Of a stretch of DNA of 33,365 nucleotides, positions 21,597 through 26,032 are shown in pieces. The stretch covers positions 1-33,365 of the forward strand of contig CAYYQL010000027.1 of the NCBI GenBank assembly GCA_964473825.1, written 5' to 3'. The translations under genes and the position numbers were made by a program. How positions within the stretch are numbered: the stretch's first letter is position 1; every line of letters starts with the position of its first letter. The stretch is from an uncultured archaeon (GTDB lineage: Archaea; Asgardarchaeota; Thorarchaeia; Thorarchaeales; Thorarchaeaceae). The notes beneath the pieces are model-generated. The model was given only the letters and a program-made list of their open reading frames with translations, was not told the origin of the DNA and ran no database searches.

Positions 21597-22901
21597 TCAG
21601 TACACTAGGAATCCGGGTCGTTCAGGGGCCTGGATTTTGCCATCAAGCACGGGGTCATTGGTGTCTTCCAGCATCTGGAGCAAAATAAACCTGAGTTCCT
21701 TCTTCTTGTCAGCGTAGCTAGGCTCTTTAGCGAGGTTAGTGTATTCCAAGGGATCTTCAGCAAGGTCGTAGAACTCCTCTGGCGCTCGTTCACTCTTATA
21801 GGTGTCCCTCCCGTAGACCTCCAAGAAGCCTGTTGCAGACTCACTCTCACGAATGTCTTCGGGAATCTCAAACTGGACAGGCAGAGGAGCAAAGTTGCGG
21901 ATGTACTTGAATCGTTTCGTTCTTATTGCTCGGAATGGATTGTAACCGATGTCGTGATGTGAGAGCTCTGCGAAGACTCTCTCGCTTCCGGGGCGCGATT
22001 CCTGATCAGCCTCAAGCATATGAAGCAGGCTTCTGCCAACTATACTCTTTGGAACTGATTGACCCAATAATTGTGCCAGCGTAGGAAATAGATCGACATT
22101 GCTCACAAGCTCGTTGACCACACGGCCCCCTGGGAATCTATCCGGCCAAGCAGCTATCAGTGCCGTCCTAATGCCGGGGTCATAGGCAGTACACTTCACT
22201 CGGGGAAACGCGGGACCATGGTCGATGGTGAAGATGAAGAGCGTGTTCTCCTTCAGACCCGCCTCCTCTAGCGAATGGCGCACTCGCCTCACTGCCGCAT
22301 CGACCTTCTGAACACCCTTGGCGAAGCGGGTATAATCTCGCTTGATTGCAGGGTGTCCCGGCAAATAGTCTGGGAGACTGACAAGCGTGTCTTCCTCATC
22401 GAGATGAGCGAAGGGTCTGTGACCTTCAAATACGCCTATGGATGCAAAGAAGGGTCTCTTCTGGTTGGACATATTCTCGAAGAACTCCTCTGCTTTCGGA
22501 ATGACAAAGTCACTGAGATAGGGGAAGTCCATCCTGTCGCTGACATGGTCATAACCGAGCGCTCTCGCATCCTGGTGCTCGTGTTGGAGACCTATAAGGT
22601 GGGTTGAGTAGCCTGCCTTCTTCGCAAGATCAGGGAGAGTGATGTTCTTTTCGGGCAGGTTCCAGCCGTAGTTCACCAAACCCATCAGACCATGCTGATG
22701 CGGTAGCAACCCCGTGAGTATGCTTCCGCGGGATGGACTGCATTGTGGAGCAGTGCAAAAGCTGTTGGAGAACCGTACCCCTTCCTCTGCTAGAGCATCA
22801 ACAGATGGCGTCTCGATGGGTGATCCATAGCAGCTGTACTCGGCACCGGTATCATGGTTTGTGAAGATGACAATGTTCGGTCTATCCGCATCCTCTACCA
22901 T
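21597..22901 (-). CDS. Cys-type formylglycine-dependent sulfatase, no signal peptide evident
   Basis: RPNIV, TPSVDALA.EG, CSPSRGSILTG (CxPxR), GYST, H.PF, DHGPAFPRVK..YDPG, EEFYDL..DP.E..NLA. Confidence 0.95.
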   Translation of the reverse strand: MVEDADRPNIVIFTNHDTGAEYSCYGSPIETPSVDALAEEGVRFSNSFCTAPQCSPSRGSILTGLLPHQHGLMGLVNYGWNLPEKNITLPDLAKKAGYSTHLIGLQHEHQDARALGYDHVSDRMDFPYLSDFVIPKAEEFFENMSNQKRPFFASIGVFEGHRPFAHLDEEDTLVSLPDYLPGHPAIKRDYTRFAKGVQKVDAAVRRVRHSLEEAGLKENTLFIFTIDHGPAFPRVKCTAYDPGIRTALIAAWPDRFPGGRVVNELVSNVDLFPTLAQLLGQSVPKSIVGRSLLHMLEADQESRPGSERVFAELSHHDIGYNPFRAIRTKRFKYIRNFAPLPVQFEIPEDIRESESATGFLEVYGRDTYKSERAPEEFYDLAEDPLEYTNLAKEPSYADKKKELRFILLQMLEDTNDPVLDGKIQAPERPGFLVY

Positions 22902-23005
22902 TTTGATTCAATCCTCAAATGGTCATGGTCTAACTGCAGCAAATTGTGTCCTCCAGCTTAATATGTGGTTCTCAAGGGGTAGAATAGATCTCACCCGTAA
23001 CATGA

Positions 23006-23051
23006 TGTACATCATAGTACAGAGTTGTACATCTATGAACGGATTTGCACA
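23006..23051. promoter_or_regulatory. Array of five TGTACA-like boxes with exact 10-bp period (candidate TrpY-type TRP-box operator)
   Basis: TGTACA(23006)-N4-AGTACA(23016)-N4-TGTACA(23026)-N4-TGAACG(23036)-N4-TGCACA(23046), immediately upstream of the TATA box of trpB2. Confidence 0.65.
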
Positions 23052-23054
23052 AGC

Positions 23055-23062
23055 TTTTTATA
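23055..23062 (+). promoter_or_regulatory. TATA box (TTTTTATA) of the trpB2 leader transcript
   Basis: Matches the archaeal TTTAWA-type consensus. Predicts a start site near 23085, about 20 nt before the leader ORF. Confidence 0.55.
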
Positions 23063-23106
23063 CTGGAATCTAACGCGAGGACTCATTCCCATAGAGTGTG
23101 GCTAGA

Positions 23107-23160
23107 ATGGCGAGCGTGTATGCTTACCAATGGCATTGGGGTCCGAGAGGGCCCGTTTAG
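23107..23160 (+). CDS. Putative Trp-containing leader peptide MASVYAYQWHWGPRGPV (TrpL-like)
   Basis: ATG GCG AGC GTG TAT GCT TAC CAA TGG CAT TGG GGT CCG AGA GGG CCC GTT TAG. Lies between the TATA box and trpB2. Not in the ORF track (too short). In-frame GTG at 23098 is an alternative start. Confidence 0.55.
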   Translation: MASVYAYQWHWGPRGPV

Positions 23161-23325
23161 CTTGTTCTCCATATGTGGGTGAAACCAACACTTTCTTTTC
23201 AGATAGGACCGCCACAGAGCCTACCTCTGGTGTGGTTTCTGGAAACTCCTTTGGTTTGTCAACCTGCAGCCGTTCAAACGCCGTACTCTATCGGAACTCC
23301 ATGATAAGAAGGATGTAACAACACA

Positions 23326-24645
23326 ATGAAACCAGACAAAAACAGGATTCTGTTAGACATAGAAGAAACACCGAAGCAGTACATCAACATCGTGCCGTAC
23401 CTCAAGAGTGACTTGCCACCCCCTTTGCATCCACAGACAGGTGAAATTCTTGGACCTGAGGCACTCTATCCAATCTTTGCAAGAGAATGTGTGAATCAAG
23501 AGGTCTCCAGAGAGAAGAGGATTCGTATTCCAGACGAGATCAGAGAGGCCCTGATGCGTTTCGGTCGACCAACACCTCTCAATAGAGCCCGACGGCTGGA
23601 GGAGATACTGAAGACCCCGGCGAAGATCTTCTACAAGCGAGAAGACGTTTCGCCCACAGGCAGTCACAAACTGAACACAGCTATTGCACAGGCATACTAC
23701 GCACGTCAGGAAGGCGTCGAGAGATATACCACTGAAACGGGCGCTGGTCAGTGGGGTACAGCAGTTGCACTAGCCTGCTCAGAATTTGACATGGAATCCA
23801 TGATCTACATGGTACGAATCAGTTACGACCAGAAGAAACACCGTGGTACCCTTATGAACACATATGGCGCGAGAATAGTCCCGAGTCCGTCCGAAGAGAC
23901 CGAATTTGGTAGACGGCTCTTGAAGGAGTCACCAGACCATCCTGGTACCCTGGGCATTGCAATCAGCGAGGCGCTTGAGGACGCAATGGGTCGGGAGGAC
24001 ACGAAGTACACACTCGGATCGGTGCTGAATCACGTTTTGCTCCATCAGACTGTGATAGGTCAGGAGACTATGCTGCAGCTAGAGGCCGCAGAGGTTGAAC
24101 CAGACTTTCTGGTCGGTTGCTGCGGTGGTGGTTCGAACTTCGGGGGTATGGTCTATCCGTTCATTGCCGAAGGGAACTATCAAGACACGAGGTACATCGC
24201 TGTCGAGCCCCGAGCCTGTCCAACGCTCACGAAAGGAGTGTACGACTATGACTTCGGCGACACAGCCGGAATGACCCCTAGGCTCAAGATGTATTCTCTC
24301 GGTGCTGACTTCACTCCACCTAAGATCCACGCTGGAGGTCTTCGCTATCATGGAATGGCACCGACAATGAGCGCGTTGGTGCATGACGGAGTTGTCGAGC
24401 CGTTAGCATATGGTCAAGTGGAAGTGCTCGAGGCTGGCATTCAGTTTGCAAGAGCTGAAGGTATCATTCCCGCGCCTGAGTCTGCCCACGCTATCAAGGC
24501 AAGCATCGACTTGGCTCTGGAAGCCAAAAAGAACGGAGAGGAGCGCGTGATTGTCTTCAATCTTTCGGGACACGGTCACTTTGACATGAAGGCCTACGAG
24601 ATGTTCATGAAAGGCGAGCTAGAATCAGACGAGATAGTCACGTGA
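23326..24645 (+). CDS. trpB2: Tryptophan synthase beta chain type 2 (TrpB2)
   Basis: PPLHP N-terminal extension, RPTPL.RA, TGSHKLN (PLP Lys), TETGAGQWG, LGIAISEA, GGGSN, IHAGGLRYHG, PAPESAHA, NLSGHG. Confidence 0.96.
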   Translation: MKPDKNRILLDIEETPKQYINIVPYLKSDLPPPLHPQTGEILGPEALYPIFARECVNQEVSREKRIRIPDEIREALMRFGRPTPLNRARRLEEILKTPAKIFYKREDVSPTGSHKLNTAIAQAYYARQEGVERYTTETGAGQWGTAVALACSEFDMESMIYMVRISYDQKKHRGTLMNTYGARIVPSPSEETEFGRRLLKESPDHPGTLGIAISEALEDAMGREDTKYTLGSVLNHVLLHQTVIGQETMLQLEAAEVEPDFLVGCCGGGSNFGGMVYPFIAEGNYQDTRYIAVEPRACPTLTKGVYDYDFGDTAGMTPRLKMYSLGADFTPPKIHAGGLRYHGMAPTMSALVHDGVVEPLAYGQVEVLEAGIQFARAEGIIPAPESAHAIKASIDLALEAKKNGEERVIVFNLSGHGHFDMKAYEMFMKGELESDEIVT

Positions 24646-24722
24646 GCGTCTATAGCAAGACCCTGTTACGGTTCAGGCCACCATGTATCACGTACTCATT
24701 CCAGACTATCGCTCAGCTACAC

Positions 24723-24775
24723 AATGGAGTGGGATAGCCCTCCTACTTGGGGTGTCCCCCTCCCATTCCTTTTTT
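24723..24775 (+). terminator. Long imperfect hairpin followed by a T-tract, candidate terminator after trpB2
   Basis: AATGGAG.GGGATA.CCC pairs with GGG.TGTCCC.CTCCCATT and is followed by CCTTTTTT, ~80-130 nt after the trpB2 stop. Confidence 0.55.
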
Positions 24776-25039
24776 GGACACTCAATGTACAGAATCGAGC
24801 AGTAATGCTTATATCCCGGCATTTCTGGTTCAGGTCTGGTGAAACAGTAAATGAGGTCTTGCCTTCATACGTGGCGATTGTGTTCATCTGCTATAGTGCC
24901 ACGGCGCTAGTCAGCAGTCAGAGCCTCCTAGATGTTTCTCCGTTTCCCGTCTTCTATGCGGTCATCCACCTGAATTTTGTTCAGTTGATAAAGGGAAAAG
25001 CCCTCTCTATACGGCTACCAGCAGAAGACTCTGTTTTAG

Positions 25040-26032
25040 GTGATTTCTTTGAATAAGACAAGATTAGTAATTCCGAATGGGCACTTGATGGACGACACTC
25101 TTCGAACCTTGCAAAGAGCAGGATACAGAATAACTGGCGAGACCAGAACCTACAAACCGAACATCAACGACGATCATATAGAAGTCAGAGTCTTGCGCCC
25201 GCAGGAGATTCCCATCTATGTGGCTGATGGGCTTCAAGATGTGGGCATAACAGGAAGCGACTGGATACGAGAGACTGGAGCGGATGTTAAGCAGCTGTTA
25301 GATCTCGGTTATGCCAAGGTACGAATTGTCCTGGCTGTTCCCAAGAGTATGATTCAGCTGGAGTCCCTAGGGGACTTGGTACTTAGCTTCGCAGAAGGAA
25401 ACAAGACACTTCGTATCGCAACGGAATACCTTGGGCTTGCCAAGGAGTCGCTAATGGGCCTGCCGGAATATCGAGAGCTCTACGGCGACTCGGAACCACT
25501 CGTCGTCACGCCATGGTGGAAGACAGGAACAAACCAGAATGTCGCGATCTATCTCTCCTTTGGTGCAACTGAAGCAAAGCCTCCGATTGGCGCTGATGCG
25601 ATAATCGAGGTTGTAGATACTGGGACGTCTCTCAGGCAAAATGGACTGGAGGTCATAGAAGAGCTCTATCAGTCAAGCGCTGTACTCATCTGTAACAGAG
25701 ATGCAATCAATAAGCCTGAGAAGAGAGAGAAGATTCTGGATATTGCTACGCTTCTTAACGGAGTGGTTGAGGCTCGAAAGCGGCTGCACATCTTCGTCAA
25801 CGTAAAGAAGGATAACCTGAATACGCTGCTTCGACTACTACCGGCTCTCAAAGAACCGACGGTATCCCCTCTCGCTAATAGCGACTGGGTAGCTGTAAAC
25901 ACCGTTATCAATCGCGAGGAATACTTGAGGTGCATTCCTTCTCTCCGTAGAATCTCTCAGGGATTGGTAGTGTACGAACCTCTACAGGTTCTACCTCTTG
26001 CAAGTGAATTGCCAAAGGAGGGGTCTTCCTAA
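25040..26032 (+). CDS. hisG: ATP phosphoribosyltransferase, long form
   Basis: LRPQEIP.YV..G..DVGITGSDW, SFGATEAKP, ADAIIEVVDTG.SLRQNGL, C-terminal regulatory domain LPALKEPTVSPL. Confidence 0.95.
   Translation: MISLNKTRLVIPNGHLMDDTLRTLQRAGYRITGETRTYKPNINDDHIEVRVLRPQEIPIYVADGLQDVGITGSDWIRETGADVKQLLDLGYAKVRIVLAVPKSMIQLESLGDLVLSFAEGNKTLRIATEYLGLAKESLMGLPEYRELYGDSEPLVVTPWWKTGTNQNVAIYLSFGATEAKPPIGADAIIEVVDTGTSLRQNGLEVIEELYQSSAVLICNRDAINKPEKREKILDIATLLNGVVEARKRLHIFVNVKKDNLNTLLRLLPALKEPTVSPLANSDWVAVNTVINREEYLRCIPSLRRISQGLVVYEPLQVLPLASELPKEGSS

What the first reader, a model, noticed from the sequence alone, without database searches (positions are those of the whole stretch)
23098..23325. Candidate archaeal tryptophan attenuator: Trp-Xaa-Trp leader peptide, GNRA hairpin and U-tract ahead of trpB2
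Seen: a ~240-nt predicted leader containing uORF 23107-23160 (MASVYAYQ-W-H-W-GPRGPV*). A hairpin GGGTCC-GAGA-GGGCCC (23139-23154, GNRA loop) starts within the second Trp codon. A weak stem (TGTGGGT-GAA-ACCAACA, ~23174-23190) is followed by CTTTCTTTTC (23191-23200), and another hairpin ACCGC-CA-CAGAG/CTCTG-GT-GTGGT lies at ~23208-23236. TrpB2 itself has a single Trp in 439 aa, so two in 17 codons is conspicuous. Known: bacterial trp leaders sense Trp-tRNA by stalling at Trp codons; archaeal transcription and translation are coupled and terminate at U-rich tracts; R-x-G-P/RGP-like C-termini occur in ribosome-arrest peptides such as SecM. I do not know of an experimentally established leader-peptide trp attenuator in archaea. 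Inference: ribosome position on WHW controls premature termination or trpB2 initiation, layered on TRP-box repression, giving an E. coli-like two-tier logic built from archaeal parts.
Basis: partly seen in the sequence, partly recalled or inferred. Interest (0 to 1): 0.85.

Follow-up and report, generated by a model that had tools for sequence, protein, structure and literature searches.

The report
Two-frame translated tryptophan leader before trpB2
In front of the only tryptophan-making gene found in this archaeal genome lies a conserved control region with two overlapping mini-genes and a hairpin, in which a tryptophan codon sits on the start codon of the second mini-gene; it looks like an archaeal relative of the bacterial ribosome-read amino-acid sensors, built differently from them.

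Summary

Comparison with 54 intact relatives of the same archaeal family shows more than was seen:
- The 17-codon uORF1 is conserved, with its own Shine-Dalgarno-like motif, an ATG/GTG start and one invariant Trp codon.
- The hairpin covaries.
- The invariant word CCAATGG holds a second start codon (23130). It opens a ~62-codon frame (uORF2, 23130-23318) that stays open to the trpB2 start in 52 of 56 leaders, although its peptide is not conserved.
- The element occurs once per genome, always before trpB2.
- This genome shows no other trp gene.

Not conserved: the weak stem, the second hairpin, the GNRA loop and the RGP-like C-terminus. No terminator/antiterminator alternative was found.

Best reading: a Trp-tRNA-sensing, fully translated leader. 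The ribosome at the UGG decides whether uORF2 is translated across the U-rich leader and into trpB2. How the switch works, and in which direction, is inferred. A -1 frameshift at the hungry UGG fits the geometry.

This scan has already reported Trp-rich leaders before trpB2 in other Asgard genomes. This two-frame variant is new. I found no published archaeal case.

The parts
23002..23051 (.). Array of TGTACA/GTACA (TRP-box-like) repeats upstream of the TATA box; context, and the subject of another note
   Evidence: Two or three such boxes stand at the same place in the relatives. It is the only such array beside a TATA box in this genome.
23055..23062 (+). TATA box TTTTTATA. The transcription start is predicted about 25 nt downstream (~23085-23090); this is inferred, not mapped.
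   Evidence: An aligned CTTATAWA-type box stands about 65-72 nt before CCAATGG in all family leaders. TBP genes are present in the genome.
23094..23101 (+). Shine-Dalgarno-like GAGTGTGG, 5 nt before the uORF1 start (GAGGTG in many relatives)
23107..23160 (+). uORF1, 17 codons. The invariant Trp codon is 23131-23133; a second Trp codon is 23137-23139.
   Evidence: In 54 of 54 leaders there is an ATG/GTG 6-10 codons before the UGG. UGG is present in 54 of 54. The stop falls 9 codons after the Trp codon in 38 of 54.
23112..23118 (+). GAGCGTG, conserved as nucleotides whatever the uORF1 frame. It may be a second Shine-Dalgarno-like site, 9-11 nt before AUG2.
   Evidence: it is read as Ser-Val in some genera and as Arg-Ala/Val-Cys in others.
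23127..23133 (+). Invariant word CCAATGG: uORF1 codons CAA-UGG overlapping AUG2 (23130-23132)
   Evidence: The preceding base is C in 54 of 54 leaders, the Gln codon is CAA in 53 of 54, and UGG is present in 54 of 54. In the window's genes CAA is only 37% of Gln codons and 26% of codons end in C. The same junction occurs in a second family.
23130..23318 (+). uORF2, 62 codons, in the -1 frame relative to uORF1; it ends 7 nt before the trpB2 ATG
   Evidence: The frame is open in 52 of 56 leaders, against 9 and 3 for the other two frames. The product of the per-genus chance values over 11 genera is about 1e-12. Its stop lies mostly between 23 nt past and 8 nt before the trpB2 ATG. dN/dS is no lower than in the off-frames. 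Two nearby indels restore the frame in the sister species.
23139..23154 (+). Hairpin with a 5-6 bp G+C-rich stem, 5 nt after the UGG and 6 nt after AUG2
   Evidence: Four of 6 pairs change on both sides and 0 of 500 shuffles reach the observed value. The median folding energy of a 34-nt window is -11.7 kcal/mol. It is the only helix RNAalifold keeps.
23169..23174 (+). CCATAT, a conserved CCAWAT word inside uORF2; role unknown
23191..23200 (+). U/C-rich tract inside uORF2; candidate termination signal when the leader is not translated
   Evidence: A run of four or more T occurs in 44 of 54 leaders, against 4 of 54 trpB2 coding stretches of the same length. The runs cluster 40-80 nt past the hairpin.
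23306..23315 (+). trpB2 ribosome-binding region (AAGAAGGATG)
   Evidence: It is predicted to be less base-paired than in shuffled leaders (0.41 against 0.52; lower in 42 of 55).
23326..24645 (+). trpB2 (TrpB-like PLP enzyme), the regulated gene
   Evidence: NF009057, 672 bits. trpE, trpA, trpC and trpB1 were not found in the 95.7%-complete genome.

Best explanation
This is a cis-acting, fully translated leader of the trpB2 mRNA that reads tryptophan supply through one Trp codon.

Shown by comparison:
- The order is TRP-box repeats, TATA box, short 5' UTR with a Shine-Dalgarno-like site, uORF1 (17 codons, invariant UGG), a covarying hairpin 5 nt behind the UGG, then uORF2. The AUG of uORF2 is made of the last base of CAA and the first two bases of UGG.
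- uORF2 is kept open, with no constraint on its peptide, across a U-rich leader to the trpB2 start.

Inferred:
- uORF2 exists to be translated. Ribosomes on it shield the nascent leader RNA and its U tract from termination (aCPSF1/FttA is encoded in the genome) and arrive at the trpB2 start codon (coupling). So 'uORF2 translated' is the ON state.
- When Trp-tRNA is plentiful, ribosomes read uORF1 through to its stop just behind the hairpin and leave. The hairpin, 6 nt after AUG2, keeps that start closed. The leader then stays bare and expression is low.
- When Trp-tRNA is scarce, the ribosome waits with UGG in its A site. The step I think most likely, and the least certain one, is that it slips back one base (Gln-tRNA from CAA to CCA). 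That puts AUG in the A site, and the ribosome carries on in the uORF2 frame.
- The layout (Shine-Dalgarno-like word 9-11 nt upstream, hairpin 5 nt downstream) is that of the dnaX -1 frameshift site, without a canonical slippery heptamer.
- The promoter repeats would add Trp-dependent repression of transcription.
For: - Conservation and linkage. The element occurs once per genome. It is present in 49 of the 51 family genomes that have a trpB2 match, and it is decayed where trpB2 is broken (G017).
- uORF1 has a conserved start, Shine-Dalgarno-like site and UGG.
- Selection acts on the nucleotides of C-CAA-UGG, against the local codon bias.
- The hairpin covaries.
- uORF2 is open in 52 of 56 leaders; the chance product over genera is about 1e-12. 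Its peptide is unconstrained: dN/dS is 0.64 against 0.72 and 0.53 in the off-frames.
- Between sister species, 70 nt around uORF1 carry only 2 changes while the flanks are 72-81% identical. A -2 and a -1 indel 20 nt apart restore the uORF2 frame.
- The uORF2 stop clusters at the trpB2 ATG; the ATGA overlap occurs 11 times.
- T runs are enriched in the leader.
- aCPSF1/FttA is present. aCPSF1 works with U tracts (PMC8716108), and a ribosome/FttA exclusion model has been proposed (PMC11616081).
- trpB2 is the only trp gene found.
- Homologous leaders in sister families carry 3-6 Trp codons.
Against: - No RNA or ribosome data exist for this organism, so the transcription start, translation of either uORF and the direction of the response are all inferred.
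- Only one Trp codon is invariant. It could be a by-product of a conserved start context for AUG2.
- C-CAA-UGG is not a canonical slippery site: after the slip the middle base of the codon mismatches.
- A ribosome stalled at UGG also covers AUG2. If uORF2 is entered by ordinary initiation, starvation would lower, not raise, uORF2 translation.
- One genus (G015, both copies) lacks AUG2 yet keeps uORF2 open.
- The second family with the CCAATGG junction has no hairpin, and a third family has its junction in the +1 frame.
- The trpB2 ribosome-binding site is not sequestered, so trpB2 could also be translated without coupling.
Confidence: 0.45

Rival explanations
1. Initiation/occlusion wiring. 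uORF2 is entered only by ordinary initiation or re-initiation at AUG2, which needs uORF1 ribosomes to melt the hairpin. A ribosome stalled at UGG covers AUG2. uORF2, and with it trpB2, would then be translated when Trp-tRNA is plentiful and shut off when it is scarce. If uORF2 ribosomes instead interfere with the trpB2 start, the direction is reversed.
For: AUG2 is present in 53 of 54 leaders, with CAA used against the codon bias. A GAGYGTG word 9-11 nt upstream is conserved regardless of frame. The hairpin starts 6 nt after AUG2. The uORF1/uORF2 and uORF2/trpB2 overlaps look like ordinary coupled gene pairs. It also works for the junction in family f3, which lies in another frame.
Against: It gives 'more enzyme when tryptophan is plentiful' for the only Trp-forming enzyme found, next to repeats that resemble a Trp-dependent repressor site. 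The interference version fails where uORF2 stops 11-44 nt before the trpB2 ATG.
Confidence: 0.2
2. Constitutive relay without tryptophan sensing. uORF1, uORF2 and trpB2 form a chain of translationally coupled frames that only keeps the long leader translated. Under this reading the Gln-Trp codons are a by-product of the conserved CCA-AUG-G start context.
For: The constraint on CCAATGG acts on nucleotides rather than on the peptide. Only one Trp codon is invariant. The uORF2 peptide is free to vary.
Against: Homologous leaders in sister families hold 3-6 Trp codons. A second Trp codon stands two codons later in 11 of 54 leaders from 6-7 genera. The element is tied exclusively to trpB2. A leader with no sensing role would not need a conserved inhibitory hairpin.
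Confidence: 0.15
3. Classical trpL-type attenuator. Stalling at the Trp codons changes which of two alternative hairpins forms, and a hairpin plus U tract stops transcription before trpB2.
For: A Trp-codon uORF, an overlapping hairpin and a U-rich tract downstream are all present and conserved.
Against: There is only one conserved helix and no alternative partner for its 3' arm (mean z 0.1). The U tract lies inside a conserved open frame. There is no Rfam match. From my own knowledge: archaeal termination does not need a hairpin.
Confidence: 0.1
4. Arrest peptide in the manner of TnaC or SecM. The nascent uORF1 peptide (Trp plus a Pro-rich end) stalls the ribosome at its stop codon, sensing free tryptophan, and so blocks or opens the leader.
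For: Most leaders end in ...GP-x-x-P-V/T-stop, with the stop directly behind the hairpin (38 of 54).
Against: In the sister species uORF1 ends after ...WHWGP, inside the loop. Another leader does the same, and three lineages have unrelated tails 13-18 codons long. Only the Trp residue is invariant.
Confidence: 0.05
5. uORF2 encodes a functional small protein of about 62 aa, or the region is an untranslated RNA element.
For: The frame is conserved and open. The core is strongly conserved at the nucleotide level.
Against: dN/dS equals that of the off-frames, and the sequence cannot be aligned between genera beyond about 15 residues. For the RNA-only reading: both frames keep their starts, stops and reading frame through indels, and there is no Rfam family match.
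Confidence: 0.05

Closest known systems
Bacterial trp leader-peptide transcription attenuator (E. coli trpL; Rfam RF00513)
   Same: A short translated ORF with Trp codon(s) at the 5' end of a tryptophan-gene transcript, an RNA hairpin overlapping its end, a U-rich tract downstream, and a Trp-responsive promoter layer upstream.
   Different: The host is an archaeon. Only one Trp codon is invariant. No terminator/antiterminator alternatives were found. The U tract lies inside a second translated frame. There is no Rfam match.
Trp-rich leader ORFs before trpB2 or trp operons in other Asgard archaea
   Same: Same gene and same position after a TATA box, with Trp codons followed by a hairpin and U tracts. 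I saw these myself in families f3, f4, f9, f16, f18, f22 and f27.
   Different: Those leaders carry 3-6 Trp codons in one short ORF (family f9) or at the end of a ~45-60-codon ORF (families f3, f16), and they stop 100-200 nt before trpB2. Here there are 1-2 Trp codons, and a second frame runs on to the trpB2 start.
dnaX-type programmed -1 ribosomal frameshift site (from my own knowledge)
   Same: A Shine-Dalgarno-like word about 10 nt upstream, a shift site, a 5-6 nt spacer, a stable hairpin, and an open -1 frame beyond.
   Different: There is no X-XXY-YYZ slippery heptamer. The shift would have to depend on an empty A site at UGG. No product has been shown.
tnaC-tnaA and pyrBI leaders, where leader translation controls factor-dependent or coupling-sensitive termination (from my own knowledge)
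   Same: Ribosome position or progress on a leader ORF decides whether transcription ends in the spacer. In pyrBI the leader ORF runs across the attenuator.
   Different: The terminator factor would be aCPSF1/FttA, not Rho. The TnaC residues and the C-terminal Pro-stop are not conserved. The signal here is probably Trp-tRNA, not free tryptophan or UTP.
TrpY/TRP-box repression in Methanothermobacter thermautotrophicus (PMC6737238 summarises it)
   Same: TGTACA-type repeats next to the promoter of a tryptophan gene.
   Different: This concerns the promoter only. A TrpY homologue was not looked for here.

Membership tests
trpL-type ribosome-mediated transcription attenuator | Short leader ORF carrying codons for the regulating amino acid | tested here: met
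   uORF1 is conserved with an invariant UGG. A second UGG is present in 11 of 54 leaders.
trpL-type ribosome-mediated transcription attenuator | Mutually exclusive terminator and antiterminator hairpins | tested here: not met
   RNAalifold keeps one helix only. The duplex search for the 3' arm gives a mean z of 0.1.
trpL-type ribosome-mediated transcription attenuator | Terminator (hairpin plus U run) in an untranslated spacer before the first structural gene | tested here: not met
   A U-rich tract is present, but it has no adjoining conserved hairpin and lies inside the conserved open frame uORF2.
trpL-type ribosome-mediated transcription attenuator | Match to the Rfam Trp_leader model | tested here: not met
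   No family matched at E up to 10 apart from one chance lncRNA hit.
Programmed -1 frameshift site (dnaX-like) | Slippery heptamer X-XXY-YYZ | tested here: not met
   The site is C-CAA-UGG.
Programmed -1 frameshift site (dnaX-like) | Stable structure 5-9 nt downstream, and an open -1 frame | tested here: met
   The spacer is 5 nt. The hairpin covaries. The -1 frame is open in 52 of 56 leaders.
Programmed -1 frameshift site (dnaX-like) | A trans-frame protein product | not testable with these tools
   No RNA or proteome data; no RNA run holds the locus.
Translationally coupled ORF pair | The upstream stop overlaps or abuts the downstream start | tested here: met
   The gap between the uORF2 stop and the trpB2 ATG is -4 in 11 leaders, between -1 and +8 in about 15, and between -8 and -23 in about 22.
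Translationally coupled ORF pair | The downstream ribosome-binding site is masked unless the upstream frame is translated | tested here: not met
   The trpB2 ribosome-binding site is predicted to be less paired than in shuffled leaders.
TnaC/SecM-type arrest peptide | Conserved arrest residues up to the stalling codon | tested here: not met
   The C-terminus varies, and it is truncated in the sister species.
Asgard Trp-rich trpB2 leader (as noted earlier in this scan) | A Trp-codon ORF between a TATA box and trpB2, followed by a hairpin and U-rich tract, in the same phylum | tested here: met
   The junction word CCAATGG is shared with family f16, which is 85% identical to a MAG labelled Ca. 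Borrarchaeota.

The most novel reading that the evidence does not exclude
A natural amino-acid-sensing frameshift switch. When Trp-tRNA is scarce, the ribosome waiting at the invariant UGG of uORF1 slips -1. The slip is helped by the hairpin 5 nt downstream and the Shine-Dalgarno-like word upstream. The ribosome then reads AUG and translates uORF2 across the leader, which prevents aCPSF1/FttA termination and delivers it to trpB2. This would be ribosome-mediated attenuation built from recoding plus transcription-translation coupling in an Asgard archaeon.
Probability: 0.2. Interest if true: 0.95.

Novelty: new variant of a known kind. Interest (0 to 1): 0.8.

Why it matters
Ribosome-read leader peptides are a textbook bacterial way of sensing amino acids. 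In seven searches of the held literature I found no described archaeal case. According to PMC6737238, archaeal control of tryptophan genes is known only from the regulators TrpY and Tar.

This locus, together with its Trp-rich relatives in sister families, indicates that archaea of this phylum (the closest prokaryotic relatives of eukaryotes) couple translation of a leader to expression of their tryptophan gene. They do so without the bacterial hairpin switch.

The two-frame junction, with a Trp codon laid over a start codon next to a covarying hairpin, gives a compact and testable system for three things:
- how archaeal transcription-translation coupling and FttA termination are used for regulation;
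- whether regulated frameshifting or regulated start choice is the switch;
- how an indole-salvaging Trp auxotroph gauges its tryptophan supply.

Tried and rejected
- **Rfam scan of 22500-23700 at E up to 10:** nothing relevant.
- **Archaeal SSU rRNA in the genome:** not assembled. Taxonomy therefore rests on TBP, aCPSF1 and relatives.
- **Genome-contig scan with TrpB2:** it left out the window's own family and gave only relatives at 62% identity or less. Among these 80 loci, mostly from outside the phylum, Trp-rich uORFs were no commoner than in the reverse-complement control (2 against 6). The one strong case was the Borrarchaeota MAG.
- **Sequencing runs:** no RNA holder is listed. Only DNA runs from one microbial-mat study hold the locus.
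- **Masking of the trpB2 ribosome-binding site by leader structure:** not found.
- **Alternative pairing of the hairpin's 3' arm:** found only in one genus.
- **A helix enclosing the uORF1 start and CCATAT,** seen in the single-sequence fold (z = -1.67): not conserved.
- **uORF2 as a protein:** rejected on dN/dS.
- **His-rich leader before hisG (24646-25040):** none.
- **Other TGTACA arrays in the genome:** none beside a promoter.
- **A tRNA-binding (T-box-like) reading of CCAAUGG / CAUUGG:** considered, but there is no supporting structure.
- **TrpY homologue:** not searched, because I had no model accession.

Full report
**1. What is in the window**

- uORF1 is 23107-23160 and reads MASVYAYQWHWGPRGPV*.
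- The hairpin is GGGTCC-GAGA-GGGCCC at 23139-23154.
- The tract CTTTCTTTTC is at 23191-23200.
- trpB2 is 23326-24645. It matches the TrpB-like equivalog NF009057 at 672 bits and has one Trp in 439 residues.

Around the locus:
- Upstream and divergent lies a sulfatase with its maturase; downstream lies a his operon.
- The 424-nt intergenic region holds TGTACA/GTACA repeats (23002-23051) and a TATA box (23055-23062).
- The genome is archaeal: it has two TBP repeats and a full aCPSF1/FttA gene.
- At 95.7% completeness it shows no trpE, trpA, trpC or true trpB1. TrpB2 is therefore the only tryptophan-forming enzyme detected. From my own knowledge of TrpB2, it presumably salvages indole.

**2. The short ORF and the hairpin are conserved**

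- TrpB2 orthologues in the same family all have 265-600 nt of upstream spacer.
- Each spacer contains an aligned block: two or three TGTACA boxes, a TATA box, about 25 nt, a GAGGTG-type Shine-Dalgarno site, an ATG/GTG, six to eight codons, CAA-TGG, five bases, a G+C hairpin, and usually GTYTAG.
- A covariance model of the 90-nt core finds one copy per genome in 57 family genomes at E < 1e-8. Every copy sits beside trpB2. The class contains hardly anything but this family.
- Weaker hits are false positives inside an acetyltransferase gene.
- Of 51 family genomes with a trpB2 match, 49 have the element. The other two have partial trpB2 matches on fragmented assemblies.
- Where trpB2 is broken (G017), both leader frames are decayed as well.
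- The hairpin covaries: four of six pairs change on both sides, and none of 500 shuffles reaches the observed covariation.

**3.

- The invariant word CCAATGG (23127-23133) contains an ATG at 23130, one base back from the Trp codon.
- This ATG opens a 62-codon frame (uORF2, 23130-23318) that ends 7 nt before the trpB2 ATG.
- In the relatives this frame is open for 57-74 codons. It has no stop across the leader in 52 of 56 leaders, against 9 and 3 for the other two frames. The product of the chance values for one representative of each of 11 genera is about 1e-12.
- Past about 15 residues the peptide cannot be aligned between genera. Its dN/dS (0.64) is no lower than in the two off-frames (0.72 and 0.53). 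The frame is kept, the protein is not.
- Its stop clusters at the trpB2 start: an ATGA overlap in 11 leaders, -1 to +8 in about 15, and -8 to -23 in about 22.
- In the sister species the two contigs that break in this leader overlap by 55 nt. Joined, they show a 70-nt core (23091-23160) with only two changes, while the flanks are 72-81% identical.
  - One change turns the loop GAGA into GUGA, which puts a stop into uORF1.
  - The other turns the G-U pair of the stem into A-U.
  - A 2-nt and a 1-nt deletion 20 nt apart restore the uORF2 frame, which again ends 7 nt before trpB2.

**4. Selection acts on the nucleotides at the junction**

| Feature in the 54 leaders | Observed | Background in the window's genes |
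|---|---|---|
| Base before CAA is C (preceding amino acid varies) | 54 of 54 | 26% of codons end in C |
| Gln codon is CAA | 53 of 54 | CAA is 37% of Gln codons |
| UGG present | 54 of 54 | not applicable |
| uORF2 Leu codon that makes the uORF1 stop is YTA | 38 of 54 | TTA + CTA are 17% of Leu codons |

Two further points:
- A GAGYGTG word 9-11 nt before AUG2 is conserved although different genera read it in different uORF1 frames.
- The overlap of UGG with AUG2, the uORF1 stop and this word are therefore each selected as RNA signals.

**5. What is not there**

- RNAalifold on 54 leaders keeps only the one hairpin.
- The 3' arm has no conserved alternative partner (mean z 0.1).
- The weak stem 23174-23190, the hairpin 23208-23236 and the GNRA loop are local features, not conserved ones.
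- The RGP-like end of uORF1 is dispensable: uORF1 is truncated in the sister species and in one other leader, and it is replaced by unrelated longer tails in three lineages.
- The trpB2 ribosome-binding site is not masked. It is less paired than in shuffled leaders.
- There is a conserved compositional signal: a run of four or more T in 44 of 54 leaders against 4 of 54 trpB2 coding controls, clustered 40-80 nt past the hairpin.

**6. Relatives outside the family**

In 40 trpB2 loci from other families of the phylum, 21 have an upstream ORF with two or more Trp in 12 residues, against 7 in the reverse-complement control. Nine have four or more, against none in the control. Examples:
- Family f9: MATVNNWAWRWQWPWRWR* and MATLRIQSWQWPWCWQ*.
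- Family f3: ...FWAWRWLTWP*.
- Family f16: ...SWHPWRSWRWQ*.
- Family f4: ...GWPWRGPWQ*, followed by long T runs.

Further points on the relatives:
- Family f16 is 85% identical to a MAG labelled Candidatus Borrarchaeota. It has the same CCAATGG junction: a 7-codon uORF1 (MCQWDLL*) over the AUG of a 61-codon frame that ends in the Trp run. It has no hairpin there.
- One genus of the window's own family still ends uORF2 in ...KWYHWW*.
- Among 80 trpB2 loci, mostly from other phyla, only the Borrarchaeota one has such a leader.
- Earlier follow-ups of this scan had already reported the Trp-rich leaders on other Asgard genomes. The present locus is a divergent member with fewer Trp codons and a leader-spanning second frame.

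**7. Mechanism**

Shown by comparison: the anatomy and its selection.

Inferred:
- uORF2 is there to be translated.
- A ribosome on uORF2 covers the U-rich leader and reaches the trpB2 start.
- In archaea aCPSF1/FttA terminates at U tracts (PMC8716108, PMC7515710). It has been proposed to compete with a coupled ribosome (PMC11616081).
- So a bare leader should be terminated and a translated one read through.

The hairpin begins 6 nt after AUG2, inside the space an initiating ribosome needs, and so should keep AUG2 closed. The open question is how the Trp codon sets uORF2 translation.

- **Frameshift wiring.** A ribosome waiting at UGG has CAA in its P site and the hairpin 5 nt ahead, with the Shine-Dalgarno-like word 9-11 nt behind. 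That is the geometry of a -1 frameshift site. A one-base slip puts AUG in the A site and leads into uORF2. This gives 'on when tryptophan is scarce' and uses every conserved part. However, the site is not a canonical slippery sequence, and the other families do not all fit.
- **Initiation wiring.** If uORF2 is entered by ordinary initiation, the stalled ribosome would block AUG2 and the response would be the reverse.

I put about 0.45 on the general model and about 0.2 on the frameshift step. The rivals are listed separately with their own odds.

**8. Verdict**

This is very probably a ribosome-read tryptophan leader, but not a trpL-like hairpin switch and not a SecM-like arrest peptide.
- It is a new variant of a known kind of regulation, in a domain where I found no published example.
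- No expression data are available.

Noticed in passing
whole genome G000 (window = contig C27): No match to trpE (PF00425), trpA (PF00290), trpC (PF00218) or true trpB1 (TIGR00263) in a 95.7%-complete genome. trpB2 stands alone next to a his operon, which suggests a tryptophan auxotroph that salvages indole.
   Followed up: partly
L187/L188 (G123, G138; family f16) and L107 (MAG labelled Ca. Borrarchaeota): The same CCAATGG junction occurs in another family. A 7-codon ORF (MCQWDLL* in L188) overlaps the AUG of a ~61-codon ORF that ends ...SWHPWRSWRWQ*, about 100 nt before trpB2 and followed by T6 runs. No hairpin follows the junction.
   Followed up: partly
L223, L201, L204, L222, L202, L209 (family f9): These are short leaders with 3-6 Trp codons. 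Their stop codon lies in the loop of a small hairpin. They are followed by a recurring CAUUGG word and U tracts; in different genomes CAUUGG stands in different frames, so it is an RNA-level motif of unknown role.
   Followed up: no
L045 and L087 (G015, contig C6): This genome has two trpB2 paralogues 10 kb apart, each with its own leader. Both lack AUG2 (CCACTGG in one; ...CACTGTCATTGG in the other) but keep the uORF2 frame open for 60 and 73 codons.
   Followed up: partly
L067 (G017, contig C167): trpB2 is interrupted by stop codons, and its leader is decayed too: uORF1 stops two codons after the Trp codon, and uORF2 stops 82 nt before the gene. The leader and the gene appear to be lost together.
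   Followed up: partly
L036 (G016, genus g15): Here uORF2 stops 40 nt before trpB2 and ends ...SKWYHWW*. This may be a relic of the Trp run that ends the long leader ORF in families f3 and f16.
   Followed up: no
G002 contigs C29 (end) and C22 (end): The sister species' assembly breaks inside this leader. The two contig ends overlap by 55 nt and join cleanly.
   Followed up: yes
window 24724-25056 (+): A 110-codon hydrophobic ORF with no Pfam or NCBIfam match lies between trpB2 and hisG and overlaps the hisG start by 17 nt. A TGTACA word (about 24785) and a TATA-like word (about 24808) lie within it. There is no His-rich leader before hisG.
   Followed up: partly
window 23169-23174 and the aligned position in relatives: A CCAWAT word 9-12 nt after the uORF1 stop is conserved. 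Its Pro codon is always CCA in the uORF2 frame, which indicates another nucleotide-level constraint of unknown role.
   Followed up: no
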